Below are positions 787-44,540 of a DNA stretch of 64,000 nt, one piece after another. Origin of the DNA: Eledone cirrhosa (Eukaryota); NCBI GenBank assembly GCA_964016885.1, contig OZ024741.1, positions 233,678,001-233,742,000 of the forward strand. Direction: 5' to 3'. Both the position numbers and the translations under genes were made by a program. Within the stretch, counting starts at the first letter, position 1. Every line of letters starts with the position of its first letter. Under the pieces are notes generated by a model. The model saw only the letters and a program-made list of their open reading frames with translations. It had not been told where the DNA came from and made no database searches.

Positions 787-907
787 GGAGGTGAGTTTTA
801 TTGTAGTACAATAAAGCAATGCAGATATCGGATAAGAAGCACTCTACAGTTTGTGGGACTGGAGTATGCATAATATAAGATCAAAAGATGGTTAAAGGAG
901 TTCCATA

Positions 908-978
908 TATTTTATTATGCGCATTTCAAAAACAAACATCATCAAGCAATAATATTTGTGTTTTCATCAGATAAAACA
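908..978 (-). ncRNA. Minimal type I hammerhead ribozyme (family A, mirror copy in the other foldback arm)
   Basis: Exact reverse complement of 1105-1175. Confidence 0.7.
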
Positions 979-1104
979 GGAGAACATGATATGAAGGCTA
1001 AAAAAACACTTGTTGATAGTGCAGTTTTAAATCAACATATCAATATGTTGATTTAAAACTGCACTATCAACAAGTGTTTTTTTAGCCTTCATATCATGTT
1101 CTCC

Positions 1105-1175
1105 TGTTTTATCTGATGAAAACACAAATATTATTGCTTGATGATGTTTGTTTTTGAAATGCGCATAATAAAATA
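1105..1175 (+). ncRNA. Minimal type I hammerhead ribozyme (family A)
   Basis: Stem I tgttttat/ataaaata; CTGATGA 1113-1119; stem II caaatattatt/gatgatgtttg with G-U pairs; GAAA 1156-1159; palindromic stem III TGCGCA; cleavage triplet AUA (1165-1167). Confidence 0.75.
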
Positions 1176-1237
1176 TATGGAACTCCTTTAACCATCTTTT
1201 GATCTTATATTATATATATATATATATATATATAAAT

Positions 1238-3360: not shown

Positions 3361-3685
3361 CACGTAAATATATATATTCACACACACAGCATGGCTGAAA
3401 CTTGCGCGTAGTTTCATCCCCACTTTGTAGCATCTTGGGCAAGTGTCTGTTTACGATAGGATTAGGTCAACGAAAACTTGGTGAATGAAAGAGGGTAGAT
3501 TGAAGCTATTTGGATATTGTCGTATAGACTGTACCTGTAAATTAAATGTCTAGCTTTGTCACAATGAATCAACATGAGAATTACACTAGGCACTACCATG
3601 CTATTAGCTGTCAGAAGTGAAAGTTTCGTCAACCTTCTCAATCGTAAACATCGTTTATTTCCGTATTACCACGCGTTATTTTAAT

Positions 3686-3863
3686 TGTTTCTACATTTGG
3701 CACAAGGCCAGCAATTACCCAGTACATTACTGGTACTTTATTTTATCGACCCTGTAAGGGTGAAAGGCAAAGTTAACCTCGGCGGGATTTGAACTCAGAT
3801 CGTAAAGGGACGTAACTATGCTGGAAAGCATGGCGTCCAACTCTCTACCGATACTGCCAAAAT
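3686..3863 (-). mobile_element. tRNA-derived SINE with 17-bp target site duplication
   Basis: Near reverse complement of 3881-4061. TSD ccacgcgttattttaat at 3669-3685 and 3864-3880. Confidence 0.85.
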
Positions 3864-3880
3864 CCACGCGTTATTTTAAT

Positions 3881-4061
3881 GGTGGATTAGCAGTATCGGT
3901 AGAGGGTCGGACGTCATGCTTTCCAGCATAGTTACGTCCCTTTACGATCTGAGTTCAAATCCCGCCGAGGTTGACTTTGCCTTTCATCCTTACGGGGTCG
4001 ATAAAATAAAGTACCAGTAATGCACTGGGTAATTGCTGGCCTTGTGCCTAAAGTAGAAACA
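3881..4061 (+). mobile_element. tRNA-derived SINE, full length, with 11-bp TSD
   Basis: Head ggtggattagcagtatcggtaga and B-box gagttcaaatcc. TSD gttattttaat at 3870-3880 and 4062-4072. Confidence 0.85.
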
Positions 4062-4536
4062 GTTATTTTAATAAAGCATATCGATGTAAGAGGAGTTATT
4101 TAAATAAAAATATAGGTGGCCCTTAAAAGGGCCAAATTAGAAAACAAATTGAAGATAATTAGAAAACAAGTCATGGTTATCAAATAAATTGGATTTAATC
4201 ATTTATATTTTCATAGTCATCAATGTAGAAAACAAGTCATTTTCACCAACAGTGGAATTACTTCTGACAGCTAATACCATGAACTATATTTTCATAGTCA
4301 TGGTTATCAATGTAGAAAACAAGTCATTTTCACCAACAGTGGAGTTAACTTAAATGAAAATATAGGTGGCCCTTAAAAGGGCCAAATTAAAAAACAAATA
4401 TATGGTTATCAAATTTTTTTCACCAACCCTATACATGAAATTGATAACCATAACTATGAAAATATAAATGATTAAATCCAATTTATTTGATAACCCTGAC
4501 TTGTTTTCTAATTATCTTCAATTTGTTTTCTAATTT

Positions 4537-5944: not shown

Positions 5945-6587
5945 AGTTTGTTTTTAAATTTCTCGATAGTTTTAAGAATTTTACTCGTCTACATCATCGA
6001 TGGCTTTCAGGAGTTTTTCCAATCCACCAGACTTGAAACCTTCTTTTTTTACCCATGAATTAAATACTTTAAAGCTGACCACGTAACCACCGTCTCTGGG
6101 GTTCTTCAACTGACTAATAGTCGCCAAACTAACACCTAATTGCTTAGCAACAGCTTCCCAACCAGAACCGACACTCTGTAAAAGGCTACCGAGAAGGTCT
6201 TCCTCCAGCTTTAGACCGTTAGCCTTTTCAAGGATGTTATTTATGTCATAGATCACCATAGGTGAACTGTCAGCTGTCTCCAGGTATGCGACTATATGAT
6301 TCAAATCGTTTTCTCTTAGACAGGCCACGAATTCATCAAATTGTTCTGACTTATTCGATTTATCGTCATGTTTCATTTTTCGATGAAGGATATGTAGAAA
6401 ACACCGATTCTTTTATTCTATAACTTTCTCTGCTTGAACGGTATGCATTTCCTCTGTACTGATAAGCTCCTTGGCAAAAAAAGCGATCAAGAATCGCTTC
6501 TAACTCCACATCACTAATGTCACTCACAAGTTGTGTCCAACATCGTTGAATTTTGTTCGCATTCCCACGTCGCTTAGTGTCGGCCAT
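5945..6587 (-). pseudogene. CARD + death domain adaptor (RAIDD/CRADD-like), copy A, frameshifted
   Basis: ORFs 6366-6599 and 5981-6376 together reconstruct the 219-aa paralog. Frameshift in a T-run near 6476-6482. A C-terminal deletion between gatgt direct repeats gives an early stop at 5981. Confidence 0.85.
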
Positions 6588-7249
6588 TTTAGTTGTCACC
6601 GGAACTGAGAGTGATTTCCCTTGAATTTACATTCGACCGCAATTATTCTCGGGTCCCAATTAATAAGGAGTGTTGGAATAAACGTGTGCTTGGGAGGGTA
6701 ATCGGCAATTGTATATGTGTTCGTAAATATGGGTTTTCTTGTATGTTCTTTTTTTTTTTTTGTCATATATAATGTATTCATATAAAATAAAATTATTATT
6801 ATCTCCATATGAGTCACAATAAAATTTCGCCGGAGATAGATTAGCAAAATTTAATAGCCGCGGTGGGGGAGGATTCAAGACCTGAGAGTATATACCTTTT
6901 ATTAAAACACTTCCTGGTTATACGAACTTGCAATCTGTTCCAAAAATTCAATGTGGCTTTTTATCCCATCATTCTTAAACACTGTTCTTTATGTCTTTTC
7001 TCACAATACCAACAATCTTTATCCACATTTTCCCAACAGACATCAAACTGCAAACATTTAAACTCTACTACAACCATATCATCCTCAAATAACACAGGCA
7101 AATTTGTAAACAATATGAGCACCACGTATTCTCCGATTAAAGTATTAGCAAAAAAGGAGTTTATTTAGAACAACCCCACTTCGGATTTCTACGTAGAAAT
7201 ATTAGATTAACCATGAATACAAGGAGGCAGTTTAGGGCAATATATGCGT

Positions 7250-7360
7250 TCCGAGTTCAAATATCGCCGAGGTCAACTTCGACTTTCATCGTTCGGGGAT
7301 CGATATAATCGACTTTCCCCTCTCCGCCAATTCCAGACCTTGTACTAAGATTAGAAACTC
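7250..7360 (+). mobile_element. SINE fragment, part of the duplicated unit (also about 10995-11100 and 15778-15887)
   Basis: gagttcaaatatcgccgaggtcaacttcgactttcatc. Confidence 0.7.
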
Positions 7361-7586
7361 TTGCTAACTCTTACATACCAGAATTAGCACAATTTACGTA
7401 ACATATCAAGAAAATAAACAACCATACAACCGTGTCGTTTAGTTATGCATACAATATCTGGCTAGTACACATAATTGAGGTCGAATGTTAAGTATATTGA
7501 GTGGAGTACCGGGTTGAATTTTCCATCCATATTTGTGTCCCAAATCATCTCTCAACTATGTTCATATCTAGCGAGGTCTCAGAAAT

Positions 7587-8220
7587 ATGAGTAACAAACA
7601 GCGGCTTGGGAATGCAAACAAAATTCAACGATGCTGAGAACAATTTGTGAGCGTCGTTAGTGATGTGGATTTAGAAGCGATTTTTGATCGCTTTTTTACC
7701 AAGGAGCTTATCAGGGAAGAGGAAATGCATGCCGTTCAAGCAGAGAAAGTTATGGAAAAAAAGAATCGGTGTTTCATCGAAAAATGAAACGTGACGATAA
7801 ATGGAATACGTCATGACAATTTGATGGATTTGTGGCCTGTCTAAAAAAAAAGGACATTCGGATCCTATAGTCGCATACTTGGAGACAGCTGACAGTTCAC
7901 CTATGGCCAATGACATAAAGGCTAATGGTGTAAAACTGGATGAAAAACTTCTTGGTGATATATTATACAATGTCGGTTCCGGCTGGGAGGCTGTTACTAA
8001 CCAATTAGGCGTTACTCAGGTGACAATTGGGAAAGCTAAAGAGAACGCACCAAACAACAGAGATAACCAGATATATTCTGTATTTAATTATTGGCTACAA
8101 AAAGAGGGTTGCGAGCCTGATGGATTGGAAAAACTCCTGAGAGCCATCGATGATGTTTCTGATAATTGTGATGTAGACTGGAGTAAAATGCTTGAAATTA
8201 TCGAGAACAGTAAAAAATGA
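7587..8220 (+). pseudogene. CARD + death domain adaptor, copy B; CARD disrupted, death domain frame open
   Basis: MSNKQRLGNANKIQRC* with TGA at 7635-7637 and deletions in the CARD. 7879-8220 encodes a death domain close to copy D. Confidence 0.85.
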
Positions 8221-11187
8221 AAAACATAAGGATCTTTTACTCAAAGTTTCCTATTGAAAACATAACGCAGGTTTGTGGTGGTGTTAGCTTTACATCAATA
8301 TGTTATAGTTTCTTTTATATACATGTATGTACCTATCAATAGCCTTCAACATTTGTTCTGAACAATATAATGTTGACTGGAATGCAATGGCACTAACGAA
8401 ATCTAAGGATTTTTAACTAAAGATTCACTGTTAGTTATACAATCCAGAATTATGGAGTGTTGACGTTACATCAATATGTTATATTTTTTATTATATACAT
8501 GTATATATCAATATTTGTAAGTATTTTACCTTCATATTTCATAATAACTGTGGTAATTTTATTTTTTATTATAACTGCTGATAACTAAAACCCACTTATT
8601 AATGTTGACTTTGCGTTATTAATAAAGTAGTTCATTATTACTTACAGTAACTATTATAATTGACTCCGTCATGTAATTTTTTATTCATAACTCCGACCTG
8701 ATACTTTTCGATTAATAGTGATAAAACTCAAGAAATATTAACCAGCAACGTTTTTAAGTGAACCTATTATCAGTTTCTCATGACATTTATGTACTATGTT
8801 AACTTCTAAAGCGAGGGAAGTATAATTATAAAGAAAGCTTCGCAAGTGCTCTCGTTAACGAAAAACTAATTTTCGGCGGTTTTTAACATCAAATTCAATG
8901 AAAACACACTTTAAAAAAACGCAAGACGGGTATTATTGTTAAATTAGACCAGTTATTTTTTTACATTTTACCGCATATATTTTATAATAGTTTCATAATT
9001 ACAGAAGTTCACTCTGTACTTGTGCGTAGAAATTTTAAGAGGTGCATTCCTAAATGCAGTCAAGCTAGTTCGGTGAACCAGGAAGTATTATTATAGCAGT
9101 AGAAGACAGAAAATCTGCGCTAAAAGTCGATTCAAGGGAGATCACTTACAGTTTGCTGGCATCCACGAACAACTGCTTGCGAACGTCAACAGAATTCAAC
9201 GATCTTTGTAGCACTTAATCAAAAAGGGAAATGACGTTTTTTGAAAATAGCTATTCCCCTAACTTATGGGCATGGGAATCTGGAGAGAAAAAAATTGAAT
9301 TAGACGTTTGCCATAATCCTATCATAGAATAGAAATAAGGAGGGCTAACACAGCAATATTTGACTGAAACTTAATTTAGGAAATGGAAATTGTTGTTGTT
9401 TTTAACAGTAATAAATTGTTTTTTTTTGCAAATCATTAGCACCATGCTAAATGAGTAGTTTGGGAGTAGTTGGTTTGTGCAATGGTTAAAATTGCAACAC
9501 GATACTGGATTAGTAGTTGAGGTTACAAATAAAATGAACCACATTATTCATAATTATCATCATAATCATCCATTAACGTCGGTTTTTCCCTCTAGCAACG
9601 CTTGCAAGTGTTTACAGTACTCAAGCGAAGCTACTGATTTCTCAGATGAGCCGAGTTTCTGCATCTCCCATACTTTTTCACATTCATTCGGGGCACCAGC
9701 AATACTGTGCTTGTCATGTCTTTGACACAGCTGAACAGTCTTGTTAGTGTTTATTTTGTTTTTTTTTGTTAGCAAGCTTTCTATGGCTGGATGCCCTTCT
9801 TATCATCAACCAATTTACATTGTATTCTCAATCAATGAAGAATATATTCATCCAGGGTCCACTGTCATAAGAGATATGTAGTAGTCACATAATAATTCAT
9901 AAGCCTGTGGTTATATATAAAGCTGTCAATTGTGTGGAACCAGTAACTCTGACTACCACAAACCATACAAATATCCCATGCTTTGTGACTACTTAAAGTG
10001 TGTGTTTCTTTCATCCCCAGTTTCTATGGAATTACTTATATTGTAGTGTCATGTCATACAGAGTTTATTAAAATATTGCCATGGTCGTTAGATCAAAAAT
10101 GAGGACCAAAGTGTAAGAATCCCCACAAGAATCTCAACAGTTCCAAATTGTAACCAAGAAACACTGTTGAAACTCTTGAAAATGATCTCAGTCTACACAA
10201 ATAGGAAACAAGTGTTGAGAAAGAATGGGCAAGCCGAAGAAACACAGAAGAACACTCAAACACCTGAGTTTCAACATTCTAGAAATATCAGGACTGGTTT
10301 GGTGAACATGAAGCAAAGAATTAAGAAGCACAAACTTCTTTCTACCTATCAGTGTGACACATCTCATGCATCCAAGAAATTATTAGTCATAGAGATACGC
10401 CAGATATGCAGAATCTACTAAGACACATCCATGAAAATTAACTGTAAGAAAAGCTAAAGAAAACCAGCATTATATTGATAGATATTACTGGAAGAGATTA
10501 TATGTATCATTGAAAGTCTCAATTCTTAGGAACTAGACCTCTTAAGTGCTGATTAATCCCCATTTTACACACATATAAAACACATTTTAGAGAGATTGGC
10601 TAAATACACAGAAATCATTTTAAATCCCTCATTTAAACGTTTCAATAAAACATATACAACTGGACCACATTCATAAACATAACTAAACCATATTTACTGA
10701 AAGGGAGTTATACGTACTAGGCGTTCTATAGCTATGTGTAACGAGACCAATATTAAGGTTGAAAAGTTCAGCACAAACAATATAAAAGTTAAAAACGAAA
10801 CTTCAAACAGTTCTGGTTTAGTGTTAAACTTTTGAGCCTTTTTCAATAAACATTAGCACATAACTATGTTACATGTATTCTGAACATGATTGTGTACTGA
10901 CTTGCTGGCCTTGTGCCAAAAGTAGAAACAATTATTATGATATATTGCCAGACCTCATATTTTGAGACATTTACTTCCGGCTATATATACGTTCGGAGTT
11001 CAAATATCGCCGAGGTCAACTTCGACTTTCATCGTTCGGGGATCGATATAATCGACTTTCCCCTCTCCGCCAATTCCAGGCCTTGTGCTTAGATTAGAAA
11101 CTCTTGCTAGCTCTTACAAACCAGAATTAGCACAATTTACGTGACATATCAAGAAAACACACAACCATTCAACCGTGTCGTTTAGTT

Positions 11188-12048
11188 GGAATCAGTTAAA
11201 CAACAAGAATAATTATGGTACAGAAAGGGTTAAGTAATCATATTGATGGCCTCCCCACAGCCCCGCTGGACAGGATAGAGAAGGCGTTTCCCTGGAGGAT
11301 GGTAAGGGAAACGCGCTGGACGAGCCATTCCAATTCGCGAGGGTCACACCTGCGGCTGGCCAGCTCAACGCCTATGGTGATGAGCAGGGAGGTAGCCCTA
11401 GGGTCGAAGACACTAGAAGTCTTCACTGCCAAGGGTACGACCGCAAACCTGTCGGAGAGCAACCGGTATTTGAACAGCTTGGCCTCCTCAGCCCAACGTG
11501 CAGCAGAACCTGGATTAGTCGCAGACTGCACCAGGTTGTGGCTGGAGAATGTGTCGCTGCAAGTGGTGTGCCACCGCGGAACGGGAAGATGGTCATGCCA
11601 TCTGGCCTTTTTGCCGTCCCCTCGGTCCAGCCCCACGAACTCGAGCTGGGAAGGGAAGCCTGCAGCGTCCAAGCCATGCTTTATGACCTCGTTGAGGGCA
11701 GCATGGCGTGGAAGCCGGCCGGCACTGTGGCGACAGGAAAGCGGGTGGAGGCCCAAAGAGTCCACGGTGGATCAACAGCGACATTGGTGTGGCTCGCAGA
11801 TCCGGAGGCCAAGCCTCAAGGAAACGCCGGTGCGCAGGCTATTGTTATCCAGCTGCGTACCAGTGGAAAAGGAGGGAAGGGCATGGAGCCAGGCACCATT
11901 GTAGGGTTTGGATGCCGCACGACAACAGGTTAGGTGGTGCTACTCCAGCTGGGGGGGGGGGGGGGGTGAGCCTGTTCTGAGGCCAGTCTGCACAGGATGC
12001 CATCCCAAATGCTGTGGGAGGACTTGATGTCAGTGGGGAGGAGGAGGG
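11188..12048 (-). mobile_element. CRE-clade non-LTR retrotransposon 3' fragment (zinc knuckle + restriction-like endonuclease), frameshifted
   Basis: CRCGSTVDSLGLHPLSC, RH.ALN, AEEAKLFKY and QRVS...QGNA motifs. Absent at the equivalent site in unit B. Confidence 0.8.
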
Positions 12049-12164
12049 ATATCTGGCTCGTACACATAATTGAGGTCGAATGTTAAGTATATTGAGTCGA
12101 GTTCCGGGTTGCATTTCCTCCATATTTGTTTCTCAAATCATCTCTCGACTGTGTTCATACCATA

Positions 12165-12824
12165 ATGCCCGACAGTAAGCTACGTGGGAATGCGAACAAA
12201 ATTCAACGATGTTGGACACAACTTGTGAGTGACATTAATGATGTGGAGTTAAATGCGATTCTTGATCACTTTTTTGCCAAGAAGCTTATCAGTGCAGAGG
12301 AAATGCATACCGTTCAAGCAGAGAAAGTTATAGAAAAAAAGAATCGGTGTTTTCTACATATACTTTATCGAAAAATGAAATGTGACGATAAATCGAATAA
12401 GTCAGAACAATTTGATGAATTCGTGGCCTGTCTAAAAGAACACGATTTGAATCCTATAGTCGCATGCCTGGAGACAGCTGATAGTTCCCCTATGGCCAAT
12501 GACATAAATAACATCCTTGAAAAGGCTAAAAGTGTAAAACTGAATCAAAAACTTCTTGGTGATATATTACACAATGTCGGTTCCGGCTGGGAGGCTGTTG
12601 CTAACCAATTAGGCGTTACTCAGGTGACAATTGGGAAAGCTAAAGAGGAGGCACCATACAACATATATAAACAGAAATATTCTGTATTTTATTATTGGCT
12701 ACAAAAAGAGGGTTACGAGCCTGATGGATTGAAAAAATTCCTGAGTGCCATCGATGATGTTTCTGATAATTGTGATGTAGACTGGAGTAAAATTCTTGAA
12801 ATTATCGAGAGCAGTAAAAAATGA
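12165..12824 (+). CDS. CARD + death domain adaptor protein (RAIDD/CRADD-like architecture), copy C, 219 aa, intact
   Basis: First ATG at 12165. The N-terminal ~100 aa follow a CARD pattern (LV.DI..ILD.F...LIS.EE..V...K..FL.IL...FDEFV.CL). The C-terminus follows a death-domain pattern (L.DI..VG.GWE.VA.QLG...I...P.....Q.Y.VF..W...L..FL.AI). AATAAA at 13331. Confidence 0.8.
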   Translation: MPDSKLRGNANKIQRCWTQLVSDINDVELNAILDHFFAKKLISAEEMHTVQAEKVIEKKNRCFLHILYRKMKCDDKSNKSEQFDEFVACLKEHDLNPIVACLETADSSPMANDINNILEKAKSVKLNQKLLGDILHNVGSGWEAVANQLGVTQVTIGKAKEEAPYNIYKQKYSVFYYWLQKEGYEPDGLKKFLSAIDDVSDNCDVDWSKILEIIESSKK

Positions 12825-12960
12825 AAAACATAAGGATCTTTTACTCAAAGTTACCTACTGGAAACATAACGCAGGTTTGTGCTGGTTTTAGCTTTACATC
12901 AATATGTTATAGTTTCTTTGATATACATAGCCTTCAATATATGTTCTGAACAATATAATT

Positions 12961-13065
12961 GTTTCTACTTTTTGGCACAAGGCCAGCAATTATCACAGTG
13001 TATTACTGGTACTTCATTTTATCGACCCCGTAAGGATGAAAGGCAAAGTTAACTCGGCGGGTTCT
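12961..13065 (-). mobile_element. SINE 3' fragment specific to unit C
   Basis: Reverse complement of the SINE tail, flanked by a duplicated gttctgaacaatataat. Absent in units B and D. Confidence 0.75.
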
Positions 13066-14260
13066 GAACAATATAATGTTGACTGGAATGCAATGTAACT
13101 ATCGAAAGCTAAGTATTTTTAACTTAAGATTCACTTTTAGTTATACAATCCAGAATTATGGAGTGTTACATCAATATGTTATATTTTGTTTATTATATAC
13201 ATGTATATATCAATATTTGTAAATATTTTACATTTGTATTTTATTATCTCATAATAACTGTGGTAATTTTATTTTTTATTATAACTGCTGATAACTAAAA
13301 CCCACTTATTAATGTTGACTTTGCGTTATTAATAAAGTAGTTCATTATTACTTACAGTAACTATTATAATTGACTCCGTCATGTAATTTTTTATTCATAA
13401 CTCCGACCTGATACTTTTCGATTAATAGTGATAAAACTCAAGAAATATTAACCAGCAACGTTTTTAAGTGAACCTATTATCAGTTTCTCATGACATTTAT
13501 GTACTATGTTAACTTCTAAAGCGAGGGAAGTATAATTATAAAGAAAGCTTCGCAAGTGCTCTCGTTAACGAAAAACTAATTTTCGGCGGTTTTTAACATC
13601 AAATTCAATCAAAACACACTAAAAAAAACGCGAGACGGGTATTATTCTTAAATTAGACCGATATTTTTTTAAAACATTTTACCGCATATATTTTATAATA
13701 GTTTCTTAATTACAGAAGTTCACTCTGTACTAGTGCGTAGAAATTTTAAGAGGTGCATTCCTAAATGCAGTCAAGCTAGTTCGGAGAAGCAGGAAGTATT
13801 ATTATAGCAGTAGAAGACAGAAAATCTGTGCTAAAAGTCGATTCAAGGGAGATCACTTACAGTTTGCTGGCATCCACTAACAACTGCTTGCGAACGTCAA
13901 CAGAATTCAACGATCTTTGCAGCACTTAATCAAAAAGGGAAATGACGTTTTTTGAAAATAGCTATTCCCCTAACTTATGGGCATGGGAATCTGGAGAGAA
14001 AAAAATTGAATTAGACGTTTGCCATAATCCTATCATAGAATGGAAGTAAGGAGGGCTAACACAGCAATATTTGACTGAAACTTAATTTAGGAAATGGAAA
14101 TTGTTGTTGTTTTTAACAGTAATAAATTGTTTTTTTTTGCAAATCATTAGCACCATGCTAAATGAGTAGTTTGGGAGTAGTTGGTTTTTGCAATGGTTGA
14201 AATTGCAACACGATAATTGATTAGTAGTTGAGGTTACAAATAAAATGAACCACATTATTC

Positions 14261-14783
14261 GTCATGAAATATTGTGTACAGTGCTCAGGTGCACTACAAC
14301 TCATCAAAAAGTGTATGTATAGTACATAGGGTAATGTACAAACGTCAGGAAAATGAACAGTGCATGAGTCATGATATACACATAGGTGCATGTGTATGGA
14401 AGGGGTACATCAGGTGTAGTTTTTGGCGAATTTCAGGAAGCATGAGGGTTTTAAAGGATGCAGTGTCTCGGCAGCTAACAACTGACGCAGGCAGTTTGTT
14501 CCATGCTTCAATAACTCTGAGCGTGAAAAAATGTTTACGAAAGTCATGGGCGCTGTACTGTTTTCTGATTTTGTAGGCATGTCCACGTGTGTTAGACACA
14601 CGGAGATCAAAAAGGTGCTCAGGGTTGTTGTTGGCGAGATGGTTAATAACTTTGTGGGTGTTTACCAAGTCCATTGCCAGACGTCGGAGCTTCAATGAAT
14701 CCATGCCCAAGGAAGCAAGGCGTTCAGAGTATGGTAGGTGTCTGATGGAGGGTATGCGCTTGGTTGCACGTCTCTGAACTGTT
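14261..14783 (-). mobile_element. CR1-clade LINE 3' fragment
   Basis: VQRRATK.I..IRHLPYSERL..L....L..RR, TRGH..K and F..RV...WN.LP motifs. Absent at the equivalent site in unit B. Confidence 0.85.
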
Positions 14784-15971
14784 TCATCATAATCATCCAT
14801 TAACGTCGGTTTTCCCTGTAGCAATGCTTGGAAGTGTCTACAATACTCAAGCGAAGCTACTGATTTCTCAGATGAGCCGAGTTCCTGCATCTCCCATACT
14901 TTTCCACATTCATTTTATCGTAAATTGTAACCAAGAAACACTGTTGAAACTCTTGAAAATGATCTCAGTCTACACAAATAGGAAACAAGTGTTGAGAAAG
15001 AATGGGCAAGCCTAAGAAGCACAGAAGAACACTCAAACACCTGAATTTCAACATTCTAGAAATATCAGGACTGGTTTGGTGAACATGAAGGAAAGAATTA
15101 AGAAGCACAAACTTCTTTCTACCTATCAGTGGGACACATCTCATGCACCGAAGAAATTATTATTCATAGAGATACGCCAGAATATGCAAAATCTACTAAG
15201 ACACATCCATGAAAATTAGCTGTAAGAAAAGCTAAAGAAAACCAGCATTATATTGATAGATATTACTGGAAGAGATTATATGTATCATTGAAAGTCTCAA
15301 TTCTTAGGAGCTACACTTCTGAAGTGCTGATTAATCCCCATTTTACACACGTATAAAACACATTTTAGAGAGATGGGCTAAACACTTCAACACAGAAAAT
15401 ATTTTAAATCCCTCATTTAAACGTTTCAATAAAACATATACAACTGGACCACATTCATAAACATAACTAAACCATATTTAATGAAAGGGAGTCATACGTA
15501 CTAGGCGTTCTATAGCTATGTGTAACGAGACCAATATTAAGGTTGAAAAGTTCAGCACAAACAATATAAAAGTTAAAAACGAAACTTCAAACAGTTCTGG
15601 TTTAGTGTTAAACTTTTGAGCCTTTTTCAATAAACATTAGCACAGAACTATGTTACATGTATTCTGAACATGATTGTGTACTGACTTGCTGGCCTTGTGC
15701 CAAAAGTAGAAACAATTATTATGATATATTGCCAGACCTCATATTTTGAGACATTTACTTCCGGCTATATATACGTTCGGAGTTCAAATATCGCCGAGGT
15801 CAACTTCGACTTTCATCGTTCGGGGATCGATATAATCGACTTTCCCCTCTCCGCCAATTCCAGGCCTTGTGCTTAGATTAGAAACTCTTGCTAGCTCTTA
15901 CAAACCAGAATTAGCACAATTTATGTGACATATCAAGAAAACACACAACCATTCAACCGTGTCGTTTAGTT

Positions 15972-16839
15972 GGAATCAGTTAAACAACAAGAATAATTAT
16001 GGTACAGAAAGGGTTAAGTAATCATATTGATGGCCTCCCCACAGCCCCGCTGGACAGGATAGAGAAGGCGTTTCCCTGGCGGATGGTAAGGGAAACGCGC
16101 TGGACGAGCCATTCCAATTCGCGAGGGTCACACCTGCGGCTGGCCAGCTCAACGCCTATGGTGATGAGCAGGGAGGTAGCCCTAGGGCCGAGGACACCAG
16201 AAGTCTCCACTGCCAAGGGTACGACCGCAAACCTGTCGGAGAGCAACCGGTATTTGAACAGCTTGGCCTCCTCAGCCCAACGTGCAGCAGAACCTGGATT
16301 AGTCGCAGACTGCACCAGGTTGTGGCTGGAGAATGTGTCGCTGCAAGTGGCATCCCAGATGAGGGGTGTGCCACCGCGGAACGGGAAGATGGTCATGCCG
16401 TCTGGCCTTTTGCCGTCCCCTCGGTCCAGCCACACGGGCTCGAGCTGGGAAGGGAAGCCTGCAGTGTCCAAGCCATGCTTTATGACCTCGTTGAGGGCAG
16501 CATGGCGTGGAAGCCGGCCGGCACTGTGGCGACAGGAAAGCGGGTGGAGGCCCAAAGAGTCCACGGTGGATCCACAGCGACATTGGTGTGGCTCGCAGAT
16601 CCGGAGGCCAAGCCTCAAGGAAACGCCGGTGCGCAGGCTATTGTTATCCAGCTGCGTACCAGTGGAGAAGGAGGGAAGGGCATGGAGCCAGGCACCATTG
16701 TGGGGTTTGGATGCCGCACGACAACAGGTAAGGTGGTGCTACTCCAGCTGGGGGGTGAGCCTGTCTGAGGCCAGTCTGCACAGGATGCCATCCCAAATGC
16801 TGTGGGAGGACTTGATGTCAGTGGGGGGAAGGAGGAGGG
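15972..16839 (-). mobile_element. CRE-clade non-LTR retrotransposon 3' fragment (zinc knuckle + RLE), open frame
   Basis: 198-aa ORF 16022-16618 with CRCG..D..G.H..SC, KRPDG, WDAT and AEEAK..KY, the PD-(D/E)xK nuclease signature of RLE elements. Confidence 0.85.
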
Positions 16840-16955
16840 ATATCTGGCTCGTACACATAATTGAGGTCGAATGTTAAGTATATTGAGTCGAGTTCCGGGT
16901 TACATTTCCTCCATATTTGTTTCTCAAATCATCTCTCGACTGTGTTCATACCATA

Positions 16956-17615
16956 ATGCCCGACAGTAAGCTACGTGGGAATGCGAACAAAATTCAACGA
17001 TGTTGGACACAACTTGTGAGTGACATTAATGATGTGGAGTTAAATGCGATTCTTGATCACTTTTTTGCCAAGAAGCTTATCAGTGCAGAGGAAATGCATA
17101 CCGTTCAAGCAGAGAAAGTTATAGAAAAAAAGAATCGGTGTTTTCTACATATCCTTCATCGAAAAATGAAACATGACGATAAATCGAATAAGTCAAAACA
17201 ATTTCATGAATTCGTGGCCTGTCTAAGAGAACTCGATTTGAATCCTATAGTCGCATGCCTGGAGACAGCTGATAGTTCACCTATGACCAATGACATAAAT
17301 AACATCCTTGAAAAGGCTAAAAGTGTAAAACTGAATGAAAAACTTCTTGGTGGTATTTTACACAATGTCGGTTCCGGCTGGGAGGCTGTTGCTAACCAAT
17401 TAGGCGTTACTCAGGTGACAATTGGGAAATCTAAAGAGAACGCACCAAACAACAGAGATAAACAGATATATTTTGTATTTTATTATTGGCTACAAAAAGA
17501 GGGTTGCGAGCCTGATGGATTGAAAAAACTCCTGAGTGCCATCGATGATGTTTCTGATAATTGTGATGTAGACTGGAGTAAAATGCTTGAAATTATCGAG
17601 AACAGTAAAAAATGA
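16956..17615 (+). CDS. CARD + death domain adaptor protein (RAIDD/CRADD-like architecture), copy D, 219 aa, intact
   Basis: Paralog of 12165-12824 with 20 amino-acid differences. AATAAA at 18021. Confidence 0.8.
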   Translation: MPDSKLRGNANKIQRCWTQLVSDINDVELNAILDHFFAKKLISAEEMHTVQAEKVIEKKNRCFLHILHRKMKHDDKSNKSKQFHEFVACLRELDLNPIVACLETADSSPMTNDINNILEKAKSVKLNEKLLGGILHNVGSGWEAVANQLGVTQVTIGKSKENAPNNRDKQIYFVFYYWLQKEGCEPDGLKKLLSAIDDVSDNCDVDWSKMLEIIENSKK

Positions 17616-19039
17616 AAAACATAAGGATCTTTTACTCAAAGTTACCTATTGAAAACATAACGCAGGTTTGTGGTGGTGTTAGCTTTACATCAATATGTTA
17701 TAGTTTCTTTTATATACATGTATGTACCTATCAATAGCCTTCAACATATGTTCTGAACAATATAATGTTGACTGGAATGCAATGGCACTAACGAAATCTA
17801 AGGATTTTTAACTTAAGATTCACTGTTAGTTATACAATCCAGAATTATGGAGTGTTGACGTTACATCAATATGTTATATTTTTTTATTATATACATGTAT
17901 ATATCAATATTTGTAAGTATTTTACCTTCATATTTCATAATAACTGGTAATTTTATTTTTTATTATAACTGCTGATAACTAAAACTAAAACCCACTTATT
18001 AATGTTGACTTTGCGTTATGAATAAAGTAGTTCATTATTACTTACAGTAACTATTATAATTGACTCCGGAATGTAATTTTTTATTCATAACTCCGACCTG
18101 ATACTTTTCGATTAATAGTGATAAAACTCAAGAAATATTAACCAGCAACGTTTTTAAGTGAACCTATTATCAGTTTCTCATGACATTTATGTACTATGTT
18201 AACTTCTAAAGCGAGGGAAGTATAATTATAAAGAAAGCTTCGCAAGTGCTCTCGTTAACGAACAACTAATTTTCGGCGGTTTTTAACATCAAATTCAATC
18301 AAAACACACTAAAAAAAAACTTAGAAAAAACAAAATTCTCTACAAACGCGAGACGGGTATTATTGTTAAATTAGACCGATATTTTTTTTTTTTATGTTTT
18401 ACTGCATATATTTTATAATAGTTTCTTAATTGCAGAAGTTCACTCTGTGCTAGTGCGTAGAAATTTTAAGAGGTGCATTCCTAAACGCAGTCAAGCTAGT
18501 TCGGAGAACCTGGCTTTCATCCTTACGGGGTCGATAAAATAAAGCACTGGGGTAATTTCTGGCCTTGTGCCAAAAGTAGAAACAATTATTATAGCAGTAG
18601 AAGGGAGAAAATCTGCGCTAAAAGTTGATTCAAGGGAGATCACTTACAGTTTTCTGGCATCCACTAACATACAGCTGCTTGCGAATGTCAACACAATTCA
18701 ACGATCTTTGCAGCAATTAATCTAAAAGGGAAATAACGTTTTTTGAAAATAATTATTCTCCTAACTTATGGACAGGGTCCACTGTCATAAGAGATATGTA
18801 GTAGTCATATAATAATTCATAGAGATACGCCAGAATATGCAGAATCTACTAAGACACATCCATGAAAATTAGCTGTAAGAAAAGCTAAAGAAAACCAGCA
18901 TTATATTGATGGATATTACTGGAAGAGGTTATATGTATCATTGAAAGTCTCAATTCTTAGCAACTACACTTCGTAGGTGCTGATTAATCAACATTTTATA
19001 CATATAAAACACATTTCAGAGAGATTGGCTAAATACTTC

Positions 19040-36600: not shown

Positions 36601-37056
36601 TGTGGGTGTTTTATTTTCATTGTTCAATACACTAATACACACATATATATAGATATGTAAAATCCCAACCACGCCGCCAAGCGGTTTCAGCTTGCGTGTT
36701 CAGCAAACCTTTTTAAGCTGAACAAAAGTCAAAGATGGTGAGATGGATCTAGACTGCCAGTCTGAAGATCAGATTGAGAATGGAGTCAGGTTAATAACTT
36801 TGATGGGTGACCCCGAGCCAATCCACAGTGAAACATGCGTAACAGATCGATAAACAATAAAAGACTAAACGAAAATTCATCATTTTTCTTAATATGTACG
36901 CTCTATCTGTGCATTGAGTGCTCGTTTTGGTTCCACCACCAGTAATTCACTGTATCACAGACACTATATATATGTATTTATATATAAATATATATAAAAT
37001 ATTAAAAAAATAATGAATAAAACAATGAAACAGTTCCTTATATTAAACAAAAAAAG

Positions 37057-37209
37057 TTCATTATTTAACGATCGTTTCTAGGACATATATGTGTTAGAAT
37101 TGGCATGCATATTCAAAAGATCTATGTACAAAATTATACAAAATTATACAAACTATCAAATAGAATATACATACCAACACATACATATGCCGTCTTCAGA
37201 AATAATGAA
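37057..37209 (-). ncRNA. Type I hammerhead ribozyme with extended stem II (family C)
   Basis: Reverse complement of 39413-39565. Confidence 0.75.
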
Positions 37210-37567
37210 ATATATTTATTGATAATAACAACAATTCAAAATTACAGGTCTGTTTGGGAACAGATTTTAAATAGACCAATGAAATACATAAAAATATATC
37301 AAGAAAATACAGTTAGGTGTGTGTATATATGTAAGTAACTTCGTTCACAGATATGCATAAAAATGTATGTTCACATGTATACGCATGCCGAAAAAATGTA
37401 TGTAAATACAAAAATTCAGGGCTAATGTCTCTGTATGTTTATAATCCACAGACAAAATACACATACGTATACATACATATACACACTCATATATACACAC
37501 ATATACATACATTCATACACACACACGCATATACACATAAACATACACATACCCACGAACACACACA

Positions 37568-37601
<34 letters not shown>

Positions 37602-37827
37602 TACGTATATATTATTATTATAACTATATGGATATTGAGGCGCACACATAAACACGGCCACATACACTTACATCTAGATGCAGAACTAAAAATAGGTAAG
37701 GGAGTAAGTAATTACAGAGGGTGTCAGACACAGCCTATTTATAAAAATGTATCTATAAATTTAGAAATAAAAAGAAATATATTAAAAGAAATAAACAAGT
37801 AAAACATATACTCATACATAAAATACA

Positions 37828-37893
<66 letters not shown>

Positions 37894-38372
37894 TATATAT
37901 ACATACATATACACATACACACACATATATATATACACACATACTCACAACACACATATATACATATATGTACACACACATACACACATACATACACATA
38001 CATATATATATACACATATATATCCATATATATATACACACATATATATACACACACATATATATACACACACACACATACATATACGTATATATACACA
38101 TACACACACATATATCCATGTATATATATACACACAACCACACACTTACACACAACTCAGACATACATAAATATAGAGATATACATGCACACATATATAT
38201 ACATACATATATACATACATATAAATATATATACACACATATATATACACACATATATATATATATATATAAAAAAATAAATAAATACACACAGTCAGAC
38301 AATTATGCACATATATACACATACATACACACATCTCTACAAATACATATACATACACATACATACATACAC

Positions 38373-38432
<60 letters not shown>

Positions 38433-39412
38433 TTATTTACATGCGCACATATGTATTTTTATACTCACATACAAACACACAAACATACATACATACTTAC
38501 ATACACATACATACATTCACGCTTACAAATACGAATAATTATAGGGGGGGGGGGGGGGTTAAAATTATTAGTGGGAAATAGTAAATATAGGTTTCAAGGA
38601 ACATAGAATATTAATCTGCATTTAGATCATAATATGTGTTTACATAGTAGTTTCAGTATTAGGAAATATAAGAAAGAAGGCAAAATTATGCATTTTAATA
38701 TAAGTAGACTATTAATTATAGGTTAATTAAAGTAAAAATAGTTAATATATTAATTTCTAAGGTGTATACTACTTAGGTTTATAATATTTAAAGCGGAATT
38801 TTGAAGTTAAACAGTAGTAGAGTATTAATTATAGCATAACTAAATTAAAAATATTAACATTATGGTATCAATTTTAGGAAATGAATTTAGTAATAGGGAA
38901 AGCCAAATCAAGTATTTCATCGGTAGTAGAATATTAATTATAGGTTAACTAAACTAAAAATTATATATTAATTTCTATAGTATATGTTAATTAGGTTTAT
39001 AATAATTAAAGCAGATTTTGTATTTTATCTATAGTAGAATATAATTATAGGTTAACTAAAATTAAAATTAATCTATATATTTATTTGTAAAGAATATATT
39101 AATTAGGTATATATTTAAAAGTTTTTCTCAGTTTATGATTACATGATATTCTGCAATCCATCTGTATTAGAATTTTAATTTTAAGTTAACTAAATTAAAA
39201 TTATAGGTTAACTAAATTAAAATTAATTTATAAATTAATTTCTAAATTGTACATTAATTAGGTTTATAATATTAAAAAGTATTTCTCTGTTATTGATTAC
39301 ACGATATTTTGTTATATTTCATCTGTAAAGGACTTTTAATAAAAGGTCTATTTAAAATCTGTTCCCAAACAGACCTGTAATTTTGAATTGTTGTTATTAT
39401 CAATAAATATAT

Positions 39413-39565
39413 TTCATTATTTCTGAAGACGGCATATGTATGTGTTGGTATGTATATTCTATTTGATAGTTTGTATAATTTTGTATAATTTTGTACATAG
39501 ATCTTTTGAATATGCATGCCAATTCTAACACATATATGTCCTAGAAACGATCGTTAAATAATGAA
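39413..39565 (+). ncRNA. Type I hammerhead ribozyme with extended stem II (family C), in the 5' pLTR
   Basis: 10-bp stem I ttcattattt/aaataatgaa; CTGAAGA 39423-39429; 114-nt stem II region; GAAA 39544-39547; palindromic CGATCG; GUU triplet. Confidence 0.8.
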
Positions 39566-39914
39566 CTTTTTTTGTTTAATATAAGGAACTGTTTCATTGT
39601 TTTATTCATTATTTTTTTAATATTTTATCTTGACTCTGTATTCCGTTTATCTTTCACCGAATGTGATTTTTGAATGCATCTCTTCTTTCCATGATATCCG
39701 GATTACATTGAGTTCTTCATACGGATTGGACACTACCGTAAACTTTTGGTAGATTTATCTACATAATTTGCTCCTATTTTCACGGAAATATTCGTATTTT
39801 TGTACTGCATATGTGTGTTAATTTTATATTTATGTATATACATATATATGTATGATTTTATAACCCCATATACATTTAGTTGAGCTCTTTCTCTTGTCCA
39901 TTATCCATATCACA

Positions 39915-42367
39915 ATGGAAAAACAATACTTGGGAACTTCTTTAAAGAATATACCAATACCTTCTAAGGATGACTTCTTACTCCTTATGATACAGAAAAC
40001 TAACCAATTTATCAGAAGAGTTAGATGGAGGGCCTACCACTTCGATAAAAAATCTAAATATGCAGATAGGAAATATATGTATGATTTCACTACTTACAAG
40101 AATCCACCACACAACTCTCTACTTGAAGACTTTGAGAAAGACCTTTTTAATTTAATTAAACACCTCAAATTTAAGAAGTATAAATCTGTCTTTCAAAAGG
40201 ACCTTGATTCTACCCTATTGGACCTAAACAAGTCTAAAAAATCCATGTCCACTCGGACAAAACTGGAAACTTGTATCACATGGATATTGAAAATTATAAT
40301 GAGTTCATATATAAAGAACTCAGGAAAAATTATAGAAAATCTAATAATGCGTCACTCACCAACATCAACAACAAAACACACAACATAGTGAATAAACTAA
40401 ATATTGAAGATAGAACTGAACCTTTGGCATTGAAAAGACCACACTTCAACCTGAAAGATCATAAATCAAACTTTAACTCAAATCCTTCTATAAGACTTAT
40501 ATGTCCCTCCAAATCTGATATTGGAATAATTAGCAAAAAAATTTTGGATAGAGTCATCCCACAAATAAGAAAACATGTTAATTTACCACTCTGGGAAAAC
40601 ACTTCCCAGGTAATTAACTGGTTTAAAAATATTAGATGTAAATCTTCTGCTTCATTTCTACAATTTGATATAGATAATTACTATTCTTCTATATCACCTA
40701 TACTCCTGAACAAAGCTTTGATATTTGCTAAAAATAGATCTAACTTAACTTTGGATGACATTAATATTATTACACATGCTAGACTAACACTTATTGAATT
40801 TCAGAATGAATACTGGACCAGAAACACATATAGTAATCTATTTGATATTACTATGGGTTCAAGCGATTCTGCCCAAATTACTGATCTTGTGGGCCTCTTT
40901 CTTCTTTTTAACATAAATGCTTCCTTTCCCCACCTTAAAGGTGGTTTATATCGTGATGACTGTCTTCTTCTTTCCAACAACCTTAGCCTCTCAGAAATAG
41001 AAAAAAACAAAAAGCTTATTAGAACTTTCCTTAAAGACTATTATAGTCTTCATATTACTTTTGAAAACACAAGTAAAGTAGTTAATTTCCTAGATATAAC
41101 TTTAGACTTAGCTACGGGTATCTACCAACCTTACCATAAACCCAACCAAAACTTACACTACATACACTCACAATCTAATCACCCTAAATCTATCCTTAAA
41201 AACCTTGCATATAATATATCACTTAGAATTTCTAACCTTTCGTCTAACCTAGATGTATTTGATAAAAATGCGACCTTCTATAACGAAGCTCTAGATAGAA
41301 GTGGCCACAAAAATAGATTGGAATATATACCTTCTACTAATAACACTATAAACATACAACCTAATATTACCAACAAACACCAAATGAAAAGTACACACCT
41401 AAATGCCACTCACACTATACCCCAAAATACCAACATAAAACCAATTTTCTCTAACTCCTCTAATATAAAGTATAGTAACTCTCAAAAAACTACTCATCAT
41501 ACAACTCTAATAAATGTTAATAATAAAACTCCTAATAAACAAGATAAAACACCTAAATCAATAAATCTAACTAAAAATGTGCGTGGTGAGGTCATTAACA
41601 TTAATCCTCCTAGTAAACATCACGATGCAACCTATAAAAATAATAAACAACATAGAAACCGTAATAGACGAGTTACTTGGTATAATGCTCCATTTAATTT
41701 ACAAATTAAGGATAATATTGCTAAAAAAAATTTTAATATCCTAGAGAAAAACTTCCCGCCAAACCACAAATACCACCAAATCTTAAATAGATCAACAGTT
41801 AAATTCTCATACTCAACAACCAAAAACATAAAACAAAATATAAGTGCCTATAATGCATATAAATGTAAAAAAACCATAAGTATACCACCAATACATCAAA
41901 CTAACCATAATATCTCCTCAAATACAGAATTAACGAAAGGTTGTAACTGTAGAAACAAAACAAACTGCCCATTAAAAGGAAATTGTCTTGTTAACAACAT
42001 AGTTTATAAATGTAAAGTTAAAACTAAAGATTCTATTTGCTCATATATAGGAGCTACTTCTAACAATTTTAAGGTAAGGTTTAATACCCACAAACATAAT
42101 TTTAAAAATGCCGCACTGGCTAATACAACATCTCTAGCAGAAAAAATTAATAGTTATAGAAATAAGAATATAGAATATGATATGACCTGGAGTGTGCTCA
42201 AAAGAGCCACCCCTTATCAAAATAATAGAAATGAATGTAGATTGTGTTCCCAAGAACTATTTGAAATAATGAAATCTAAGGATATCCTATTAAATAAACG
42301 ACAGGAATTAATTATATCGTGTAATCATAAACTGAGAAAAACATTTAAATATTATAAACCTAATTAA
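39915..42367 (+). CDS. Naiad-type PLE polyprotein (RT + GIY-YIG endonuclease), one frameshift near 40240
   Basis: SLKNIPIPS...FIRRVRWRA; SDKTGNLY after the shift in an A-run; LKDHK..F..NP..RLI.P.KS; FDIDNYY; TMGS.D.AQITDLVG; YRDD; CNCR..CPL.G.CL..IVY; YIG; C.LC..E; LLNKR.E. Confidence 0.88.
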
Positions 42368-43568
42368 TAATATATATTTTAGAAATTAATATATAATTTA
42401 ATTTAAATGTAGTTAACCTATAATTTTAATTTAATTAAAATTCTACTACAGATGAAAATAAAAAATATTGTGTAATCATAAATTGTGAATAACTTTTAAA
42501 TATTATTAACATAATTAATATATACTTTGGAAATTAATTTATAGATTAATTTTAGTTTATTTAACCTTTTATTAAAATTCCTTTACAGATGAAATATAAC
42601 AAAATATCGTGTAATCAATAACAGAGAAATACTTTTTAATATTATAAACCTAATTAATGTACAATTTAGAAATTAATTTATAAATTAATTTTAATTTAGT
42701 TAACCTATAATTTTAATTTAGTTAACTTAAAATTAAAATTCTAATACAGATGGATTGCAGAATATCATGTAATCATAAACTGAGAAAAACTTTTAAATAT
42801 ATACCTAATTAATATATTCTTTACAAATAAATATATAGATTAATTTTAATTTTAGTTAACCTATAATTATATTCTACTATAGATAAAATACAAAATCTGC
42901 TTTAATTATTATAAACCTAATTAACATATACTATAGAAATTAATATATAATTTTTAGTTTAGTTAACCTATAATTAATATTCTACTACCGATGAAATACT
43001 TGATTTGGCTTTCCCTATTACTAAATTCATTTCCTAAAATTGATACCATAATGTTAATATTTTTAATTTAGTTATGCTATAATTAATACTCTACTACTGT
43101 TTAACTTCAAAATTCCGCTTTAAATATTATAAACCTAAGTAGTATACACCTTAGAAATTAATATATTAACTATTTTTACTTTAATTAACCTATAATTAAT
43201 AGTCTACTTATATTAAAATGCATAATTTTGCCTTCTTTCTTATATTTCCTAATACTGAAACTACTATGTAAACACATATTATGATCTAAATGCAGATTAA
43301 TATTCTATGTTCCTTGAAACCTATATTTACTATTTCCCACTAATAATTTTAATCCCCCTCCCCCCCCCCCCCTATAATTATTCGTATTTGTAAGCGTGGA
43401 TGTATGTATGTGTATGTAAGTATGTATGTATGTTTGTGTGTTTGTATATGAGTATAAAAATACATATGTGCGCATGTAAATAAGTGTGTATGAGTGTATA
43501 TATATATATATAAATGTAAGTATGTATGTATACGTACATACATATATGTATACAGACGTACAGTAGCA

Positions 43569-43613
<45 letters not shown>

Positions 43614-43775
43614 GCATACAGGTACACATACATATATGCACGCATCAGTTTAGCCGTCGTTTATTATAACGCCGGCCGCTTTGTTCGTTTGTTTGTCAAC
43701 AAACCGAACAGCCTGAATTTATGCCATACGGTGTTAAGGCAACCACGTCAACTTTTTGTTCAACACTGACACAGG

Positions 43776-43820
43776 AACGTTGTACTAGTTTCAAGCTTGT
43801 TAGCTATCATCAGCACCGTT
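43776..43820 (-). ncRNA. Minimal type I hammerhead ribozyme (family B)
   Basis: Same motif as 44249-44293 with one stem I mismatch. Confidence 0.7.
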
Positions 43821-43941
43821 TACCCGTATGGCATAAATTCAGGCTGTTCGGTTTGTTGACAAACAAACGAACAAAGCGGCCGGCGTTATAATAAACGACG
43901 GCTAAACTGATGCGTGCATATATGTATGTGTACCTGTATGC

Positions 43942-44014
<73 letters not shown>

Positions 44015-44455: not shown

Positions 44456-44540
<85 letters not shown>

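What the first reader, a model, noticed from the sequence alone, without database searches (positions are those of the whole stretch)
5945..17615. Four-copy birth-and-death cluster of compact CARD + death-domain (RAIDD/CRADD-like) adaptor genes
Seen: four paralogs of an uninterrupted 219-aa ORF. Copy A (minus) and copy B (plus) are head-to-head pseudogenes; C and D are intact in ~4.8-kb tandem units, each with a downstream AATAAA. Inferred from residue patterns: an N-terminal CARD and a C-terminal death domain. Established: this is the architecture of RAIDD/CRADD, the PIDDosome adaptor linking PIDD to caspase-2, which is single-copy in vertebrates. Inference: a lineage-specific, rapidly turning-over family of death-fold adaptors, possibly a cephalopod innate-immune or cell-death signalling module. 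I do not know of a description of such a family.
Basis: partly seen in the sequence, partly recalled or inferred. Interest (0 to 1): 0.85.

Follow-up and report, generated by a model that had tools for sequence, protein, structure and literature searches.

The report
Multiplied octopus CRADD-like death adaptors
An octopus-type genome carries ten tandem copies (five intact) of a small two-domain gene that is likely its version of the cell-death adaptor CRADD, and the copies keep a near-identical caspase-recruitment half while the other half falls into two distinct versions, which would let different signals switch on the same caspase.

Summary
Observation confirmed: C and D are intact 219-codon ORFs 4,791 bp apart; A and B are broken and head-to-head; Pfam, an AlphaFold model and fold search show CARD plus death domain (DD). 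Three corrections. (1) The four copies are one of three ~70-kb blocks: ten copies, five intact, plus two old paralogs. DNA depth follows copy number, so the expansion is real; an unlabelled run that behaves as RNA covers D. (2) The family is not new to this lineage: Octopus and Argonauta carry paralogs, two auto-named CRADD. (3) It is probably the diverged, intronless cephalopod CRADD itself: two CRADD-like proteins from other animals hit this cluster best, though trees do not settle it. Likely reading: gene conversion keeps one caspase-recruiting output while DD inputs diverge. No partner was tested. This conflicts with papers reporting either no cephalopod CRADD or one constrained copy. New variant of a known kind; interest 0.45.

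The parts
5945..6587 (-). Copy A1: broken CARD+DD gene of subfamily I (A-type); its counterparts in the next two blocks (A2, A3, outside the window) are intact
   Evidence: Pfam Death E 4.1e-4 on the residual ORF
6598..6618 (-). Conserved non-coding stretch just upstream of the A-type start; read out of frame it gives EITLSSG, the same letters as the annotated N-terminal extension of the O. vulgaris protein, so that extension is probably 5' UTR
7454..7566 (+). Upstream element shared by B, C and D type copies (likely promoter or 5' UTR; inferred)
7587..8220 (+). Copy B1: broken CARD+DD gene of subfamily II; the same breaks are in B2 of the next block
   Evidence: Pfam Death E 9.8e-6 on the residual ORF
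8621..8626 (+). AATAAA downstream of B
10145..14260 (+). Tandem unit carrying C (includes decayed retroelement pieces)
   Evidence: self-comparison
12165..12824 (+). Copy C1: intact 219-aa CARD+DD ORF, subfamily II
13331..13336 (+). AATAAA downstream of C
14922..18513 (+). Tandem unit carrying D
   Evidence: self-comparison
16859..17146 (+). Stretch covered without a difference by a depth-71.6 contig of run X1; these 288 bases occur exactly once in 457 kb, at D
16956..17615 (+). Copy D1: intact 219-aa ORF; CARD about residues 5-107, linker, DD about residues 119-218
17430..17501 (+). Codons 159-182 of D: end of DD helix 3, the 3-4 loop and helix 4; the peak of divergence between subfamilies and the densest amino-acid change among recent copies
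18021..18026 (+). AATAAA downstream of D
49313..51136 (-). C2H2 zinc-finger coding stretch that sits in the same ~70-kb block and is triplicated with the cluster (98-99% identical copies)
   Evidence: the zinc-finger label is read from the sequence motifs, no family scan was run on it

Best explanation
These are single-coding-exon CARD+death-domain genes, ten recent copies of which five are intact, that are likely the diverged cephalopod CRADD/RAIDD family and likely act as non-enzymatic adaptors: the death domain would co-assemble with an upstream death-domain protein and the CARD would then cluster and activate a CARD caspase (caspase-2 or caspase-Y). Shown: the two folds, the copy number, two subfamilies that share a near-identical CARD half and differ in the death-domain half. 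Inferred: orthology with CRADD (about 0.7), gene conversion as the cause of the shared CARD (about 0.8), caspase recruitment (about 0.65), and that the two death-domain versions read different upstream partners (about 0.4). The copy number itself comes from a 4.8-kb tandem duplication plus triplication of a ~70-kb block.
For: Fold: Pfam CARD and Death; model mean pLDDT 81, 14 helices in two bundles plus a linker helix; best DD structure match is RAIDD DD (Foldseek rank 1, E 0.013, target TM 0.85; Z 12.3, 91 of 91 residues, rmsd 2.3, ahead of RIPK1 11.2, TNFR1 10.8, PIDD 10.4). ESM Atlas nearest clusters are CARD+DD proteins named CRADD or zgc:174906 (0.86-0.89, leads only). Reciprocal hits: P0029 (unnamed record) has human CRADD DD as best solved relative (E 1.6e-12) and 10 of its 11 matches in this genome are this cluster, best E 4.5e-14; the limpet protein P0020 has CRADD as best DD match and hits RAIDD CARD at 4.6e-5, and 10 of its 12 matches are this cluster. 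A C-terminal C-x-VDW-like motif is shared with those proteins and not with the ten other death-domain stretches of this genome in the alignment. Mosaic: A2 vs D differ at 21 of 322 bases in the 5' half and 82 of 298 in the 3' half (Fisher P 1e-12; same in A3/C1 and A1/C3); dS 0.03-0.10 in CARD vs 0.43-0.60 in DD for the six between-subfamily pairs; identity falls to 44-49% in the window over DD helices 3-4, surfaces used in type I and III DD contacts (PMC7156525, passages). A divergence peak under conversion is a described sign of selection (PMC3924837, passages). The O. sinensis pair shows the same direction: CARD 75%, DD 54%. CARD caspases exist in this genome. Copies are real and at least D appears transcribed.
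Against: Sequence profiles of the family score RIPK1 DD best, with CRADD behind PIDD or FADD; RAIDD CARD (3crd) is absent from the full lists and from the rows shown; P0020's best CARD match is RIG-I. The DD tree groups the family with CRADD-like rows only weakly (86/45) and an AU test rejected none of five alternative partners; the CARD tree does not join them. No PIDD-type ZU5 gene among 6 matches of 13 candidates and no caspase-2 was identified here. Excess amino-acid change in DD is only borderline (3 synonymous, 31 non-synonymous; P 0.054 or 0.017 by the expected share), no single pair is significant, and conversion tracts can mimic it. CARD changes among recent copies look neutral (9:39), and half of the ten copies are broken.
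Confidence: 0.55

Rival explanations
1. Passenger expansion: one working CRADD-like gene is enough, and the extra copies are neutral by-products of segmental duplication in a repeat-rich, zinc-finger-bearing block, drifting toward loss.
For: The cluster is triplicated as part of a ~70-kb block together with a C2H2 zinc-finger gene and retroelements; 5 of 10 copies are broken; whole-gene dN/dS is 0.7-2.2 and never differs significantly from 1 in ten pairs.
Against: Two subfamilies with DD dS about 0.5 both keep intact members; old paralog lineages are kept across octopods (E groups with O. vulgaris CAI9733324 and Argonauta GAB1604217, 99/96); variant letters in high-depth X1 contigs match intact copies of both subfamilies (A3 and C2). 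This rival can hold for the recent copy number while failing for the two subfamilies.
Confidence: 0.25
2. An independent cephalopod fusion of a CARD and a RIPK1- or Roco-like death domain, unrelated to CRADD by descent, acting in NF-kB or antiviral signalling or as a decoy that caps death-fold filaments instead of activating a caspase.
For: Profiles score RIPK1 DD highest; the family CARD has an insertion of about 8 residues absent from the CRADD-like rows and most other CARDs of this genome; trees do not resolve; other CARD+DD genes exist beside CRADD, such as fish zgc:174906; the nearest non-family DD in the genome belongs to an LRR-ROC-COR gene.
Against: Reciprocal best hits through two CRADD-like proteins over both domains, no better CRADD candidate found in the genome, shared C-terminal motif, RAIDD DD as best structural match.
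Confidence: 0.17
3. Assembly artefact: C and D, or the three blocks, are alleles or falsely duplicated sequence.
For: Blocks are up to 99.4% identical over 7.7 kb, within reach of allelic difference.
Against: No N in 457 kb; contig depth in three DNA-like runs rises with assembly k-mer copy number (r 0.97-0.99, 8 contigs each) at 12.0, 9.0 and 8.3 per copy against 10.2, 5.4 and 5.1 in a single-copy stretch nearby; three blocks cannot be two alleles. The tool warns that contig depth is not a copy number, and the three runs are one sample.
Confidence: 0.03

Closest known systems
Human CRADD/RAIDD (PIDDosome adaptor; PDB 2o71, 2of5, 3crd)
   Same: N-terminal CARD, short linker, C-terminal DD, about 200 aa, no enzyme domain; RAIDD DD is the best structural match.
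   Different: Multi-copy with two DD versions; no intron in the coding region (human CRADD has one, recalled); CARD not closer to RAIDD CARD than to other CARDs and carries an insertion; no PIDD found in this genome.
Lophotrochozoan CRADD (Krasovec et al. 2024, PMC11463336; Aplysia LOC101855728 in PMC9334734)
   Same: Probably the ortholog group: that paper lists CRADD as present in O. bimaculoides and proposes CRADD as activator of caspase-2 and caspase-Y without PIDD or APAF-1.
   Different: Described there as the one conserved CARD activator under constraint (one gene in Aplysia); here ten recent copies, pseudogenes and two old paralogs. Which octopus accession the paper used could not be read.
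Octopod database entries: O. vulgaris CAI9733330, CAI9733331 ('domain-containing CRADD'), CAI9733324; O. sinensis LOC115219506, LOC118766026; O. bimaculoides LOC106868330; Argonauta GAB1604215, GAB1604217
   Same: Same family, 40-49% identity for the core members; near-consecutive accessions on one contig per species suggest a tandem array (inference).
   Different: Automatic annotation only; the five intact copies here form their own clade (88/99), so the ten-copy state arose or was homogenised in this lineage.
Fish zgc:174906 and expanded death-fold adaptor sets of other invertebrates
   Same: CARD+DD genes outside the single CRADD; expansions in amphioxus, sea urchin and sponges are recalled, and earlier finding e1-9797598 describes a sponge case.
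   Different: No exon shuffling here: single-exon ORFs diversified by duplication and conversion.

Membership tests
CRADD/RAIDD | N-terminal CARD | tested here: met
   Pfam over cut-off in 5 of 5 intact copies; Z 11-12.6 to solved CARDs over residues 5-107
CRADD/RAIDD | C-terminal death domain and no other domain, about 200 aa | tested here: met
   Pfam Death E 5.8e-7 to 1.7e-3, over cut-off in 2 of 5 intact copies; Z 12.3 to RAIDD DD; 219-227 aa
CRADD/RAIDD | Reciprocal best hit with CRADD orthologs | tested here: met
   Through two bridging proteins (P0029, P0020): their best DD match among solved structures is human CRADD and their best genome matches are this cluster. Direct profile searches rank RIPK1 DD first.
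CRADD/RAIDD | Groups with CRADD in a tree | tested here: inconclusive
   DD tree support 86/45; AU test rejects none of five alternatives; CARD tree unresolved; human CRADD itself was not in the trees
CRADD/RAIDD | CARD closest to RAIDD CARD | tested here: inconclusive
   3crd not listed; many CARDs tie
CRADD/RAIDD | CARD binds caspase-2 CARD and activates it | not tested
PIDDosome | A PIDD partner (LRR-ZU5-ZU5-UPA-DD) in the genome | tested here: inconclusive
   6 ZU5 matches of 13 candidates fall in three loci that read as ankyrin, ZO-1 and UNC5 (labels recalled from motifs); diverged or intron-split ZU5 can be missed; papers disagree (absent in PMC11463336, present in squid in PMC9389742)
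CRADD/RAIDD | Conserved synteny and exon structure with molluscan CRADD | not testable with these tools
   No other mollusc genome could be searched

The most novel reading that the evidence does not exclude
Octopods have turned the single CRADD adaptor into a small, fast-turning repertoire in which gene conversion holds the caspase-recruiting CARD constant while selection keeps two or more death-domain specificities apart, wiring several PIDD-independent sensors (an LRR-ROC-COR-DD protein is one candidate) to one initiator caspase: variation placed in the adaptor layer rather than the receptor layer, and arising in parallel in Octopus.
Probability: 0.3. Interest if true: 0.7.

Novelty: new variant of a known kind. 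Interest (0 to 1): 0.45.

Why it matters
How molluscs activate CARD caspases is open: one paper finds no APAF-1 or PIDD and proposes CRADD as the only activator, another reports no CRADD in squid or octopus. A diverged, intronless, multi-copy CRADD family would explain the miss, contradict the 'single constrained copy' view for octopods, and supply natural variants (same CARD, different DD) with which to find the upstream partner. It is not a new architecture or pathway type.

Tried and rejected
False duplication: rejected. Sequencing-run search listed no holder on record as RNA; X1 is treated as RNA-like only from its behaviour. Looking for a separate canonical CRADD: Pfam CARD (26 matches of 28 candidates) and Death (20 of 21) lists were inspected; 30-60 kb upstream of the C7 and C27 death-domain exons held no CARD exon; the C7 one ends an LRR-ROC-COR gene; a protein search with the C27 exon found nothing among 43 candidates. 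These searches score only best candidates, so absence is not shown. Looking for caspase-2: the multi-exon caspase on C3 is an executioner-type gene and 200 kb upstream held no CARD. The idea that subfamily II is the ortholog of O. vulgaris CAI9733330 and subfamily I of LOC115219506: weak (CAI9733330 sides with II at 9 and I at 3 of 31 diagnostic sites, the others split evenly; AU P 0.19); left open. Complex prediction of the CARD with a caspase-Y CARD was not available, so binding is untested. Table S7 of PMC11463336 (CRADD accessions) and the supplement of PMC11431876 could not be read; either could show whether those papers' 'CRADD' is this family. Earlier findings by place and by sequence: none.
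Full report
Observation. The window holds two intact 219-codon ORFs, C (12165-12824) and D (16956-17615), in tandem units 95.7% alike, and two broken relatives, A (minus, start 6587) and B (plus, start 7587), head to head. Pfam finds CARD and Death in C and D. An AlphaFold model from an 8-row alignment (mean pLDDT 81, pTM 0.55; the other four models 64-69) gives two helical bundles joined by a low-confidence linker. Foldseek has no match at E 0.001 or better, but ranks RAIDD DD first; the second-look aligner gives Z 12.3 for RAIDD DD over residues 119-215 and Z 11-12.6 for many CARDs over residues 5-107. The architecture is therefore shown.

Extent. A search of the genome (3.0 Gb, chromosome-scale) gave 15 matches of 20 candidates, 14 within 150 kb. 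Rebuilding the region shows a ~70-kb block present three times at 95-99% identity, each with the cluster and a C2H2 zinc-finger stretch. In window-based coordinates the ten copies are A1, B1, C1, D1; A2 (76177-75494, minus, intact, 227 aa), B2 (broken like B1), C2 (81700-82359, intact); A3 (147513-146839, minus, intact, 224 aa), B3 (5' part missing), C3 (14-base gap). Five are intact. Two old single-ORF paralogs also exist: E, 98 kb upstream (192 aa, profile E 1e-13, no Pfam hit) and F, 105 Mb away on the same contig (221 aa, Pfam Death E 3.6e-5).

Real or artefact. There is no N in 457 kb. For the 8 longest listed contigs of each of three DNA-like runs (one sample), depth rises with assembly k-mer copy number (r 0.97-0.99) at 12.0, 9.0 and 8.3 per copy, against 10.2, 5.4 and 5.1 in a single-copy stretch near E. 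The tool warns that contig depth is not a copy number, but nothing points to over-assembly.

Expression. No run is on record as RNA. Run X1 (88 million letters) behaves as RNA: one contig covers E's ORF and downstream region, stops fitting exactly at an AG after a T-rich tract 26 bases before the ATG, and the six bins upstream of it have no X1 cover where DNA runs continue. In the cluster, an X1 contig matches 16859-17146 with no difference, a string found once in 457 kb, at D; others carry letters of intact A3 (3 of 3 sites) and C2 (9 of 12 sites), and a lower-depth one carries letters of broken B2 (4 of 4). This is one sample, contigs only, and cannot rank genes. An O. vulgaris skin-mucus proteome lists a 'death domain-containing protein CRADD' (PMC11431876, passages; supplement unreadable), which may or may not be this family.

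Relatives. Word-based searches returned 2 and then 4 proteins, three named from Octopus and one unnamed; the full scan returned 31 at E 0.001 or better, of which I looked up 10. Named ones: O. bimaculoides LOC106868330, O. sinensis LOC115219506 and LOC118766026, O. vulgaris CAI9733324/330/331 (330 and 331 auto-named 'domain-containing CRADD'), Argonauta GAB1604215/217, and a limpet CARD+DD protein. Close accession numbers on one contig suggest tandem arrays in those species (inference). In a 22-row tree (6 of the 28 aligned rows dropped: five near-duplicates and one long outlier) the five intact copies form their own group (88/99) and E groups with CAI9733324 and GAB1604217 (99/96). The family is thus old in octopods and re-expanded here.

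Is it CRADD? For: two bridging CARD+DD proteins whose best solved DD relative is human CRADD find this cluster as their best match in the genome, 10 of 11 and 10 of 12 matches; a C-terminal C-x-VDW-like motif is shared; the best structural DD match is RAIDD. No other CRADD candidate turned up among the CARD and Death lists, which are lower bounds. Against: family profiles score RIPK1 DD first, RAIDD CARD is not among the listed hits, and trees are unresolved. I put orthology at about 0.7.

The copies fall into subfamily I (A) and II (B, C, D) by their 3' half, but not by their 5' half (separate trees). A2 and D differ at 21 of 322 bases in the CARD half and 82 of 298 in the DD half (P 1e-12); synonymous divergence is 0.03-0.10 against 0.43-0.60. 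The simplest cause is gene conversion or recombination that spreads one CARD across old duplicates (inference). Identity bottoms out at 44-49% over DD helices 3-4, which form type I and III contact surfaces (PMC7156525, passages). Such a peak under conversion has been used as a sign of selected functional difference (PMC3924837, passages), but simple loss of conversion in a diverged tract gives the same picture. Among recent intact copies DD changes are 3 synonymous to 31 non-synonymous (P 0.054 or 0.017) and CARD 9 to 39 (neutral-looking); 10 of 23 subfamily II DD changes fall in residues 159-176 (P 0.006 for a window chosen after looking). The O. sinensis pair shows CARD 75% and DD 54%, while the O. 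sinensis and O. bimaculoides orthologs show CARD 76% and DD 91%, so a duplicate's DD diverged there too.

Mechanism. By analogy with the PIDDosome, the DD would join an upstream DD protein in a helical oligomer and the CARD would cluster a CARD caspase. The genome has single-ORF CARD caspases of the caspase-Y kind (label by resemblance to sequences in the PMC11463336 supplement). Caspase-2 was not located. No PIDD-type gene was seen. The closest non-family DD belongs to an LRR-ROC-COR gene, a candidate sensor only. No binding was tested.

Literature. PMC11463336 (passages, section 10 in full, supplement searches and part 3; preprint passages) lists CRADD in O. bimaculoides, finds no PIDD, and argues for one constrained CARD activator; its CRADD accession table was unreadable. 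PMC9389742 (passages) reports no Cradd in squid or the octopus genome, reports Pidd1, and notes 15 unassigned CARD or DED candidates. PMC9334734 (passages) counts one CRADD in Aplysia. PMC7836458, PMC8917759 and PMC4346834 (passages) mention bivalve CRADD or PIDD without an expansion in the text seen. Six searches (listings, with the papers above opened) showed no description of a cephalopod CRADD expansion; subscription journals are not covered.

Verdict. Known architecture, known kind of expansion, new for this gene: new variant of a known kind, interest 0.45.

Noticed in passing
L100:4558-5136 (minus), 98 kb upstream of the window: Old paralog E, 192 aa, with a shortened DD and no Pfam hit; an X1 contig covers it and breaks off at an AG acceptor 26 bases before the ATG, so it likely has a spliced 5' UTR.
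   Followed up: yes
L015:1198-1863 (+): Old single-ORF paralog F, 221 aa, 105 Mb away on the same contig; single-ORF caspase genes lie 0.7-1.2 Mb from it.
   Followed up: partly
window 49313-51136 (minus): C2H2 zinc-finger gene triplicated with the cluster.
   Followed up: partly
window 6598-6618 (minus): The N-terminal extensions annotated on Octopus proteins P0001, P0002 and P0004 match a conserved stretch that is out of frame here, so the true start is likely the MAD methionine; the conservation suggests a regulatory element.
   Followed up: partly
window 7760-7775 and copy C3 (L024 near 8520): B copies (13 bases) and C3 (14 bases) lack nearly the same stretch, as if a disabling gap was passed on by conversion or recurred at a short repeat.
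   Followed up: no
L164-L180, L037, L045, L052, L133: Many caspase genes of this genome, CARD caspases included, are single uninterrupted ORFs, several in small clusters: intron loss or retrocopying seems common in this pathway here.
   Followed up: no
L060-L061 (contig C7, 85.077-85.085 Mb, minus): LRR-ROC-COR gene with a 1,063-codon exon and a downstream death-domain exon; its DD is the nearest non-family DD to the cluster.
   Followed up: partly
L135 and L136: An identical half-CARD exon at two places 99 Mb apart on contig C4.
   Followed up: no
window 870-1213, 3682-4065, 36994-46030: Near-perfect inverted repeats, including arms of about 1.4 kb at 97% around a 695-codon retroelement-like ORF (40280-42367).
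   Followed up: no
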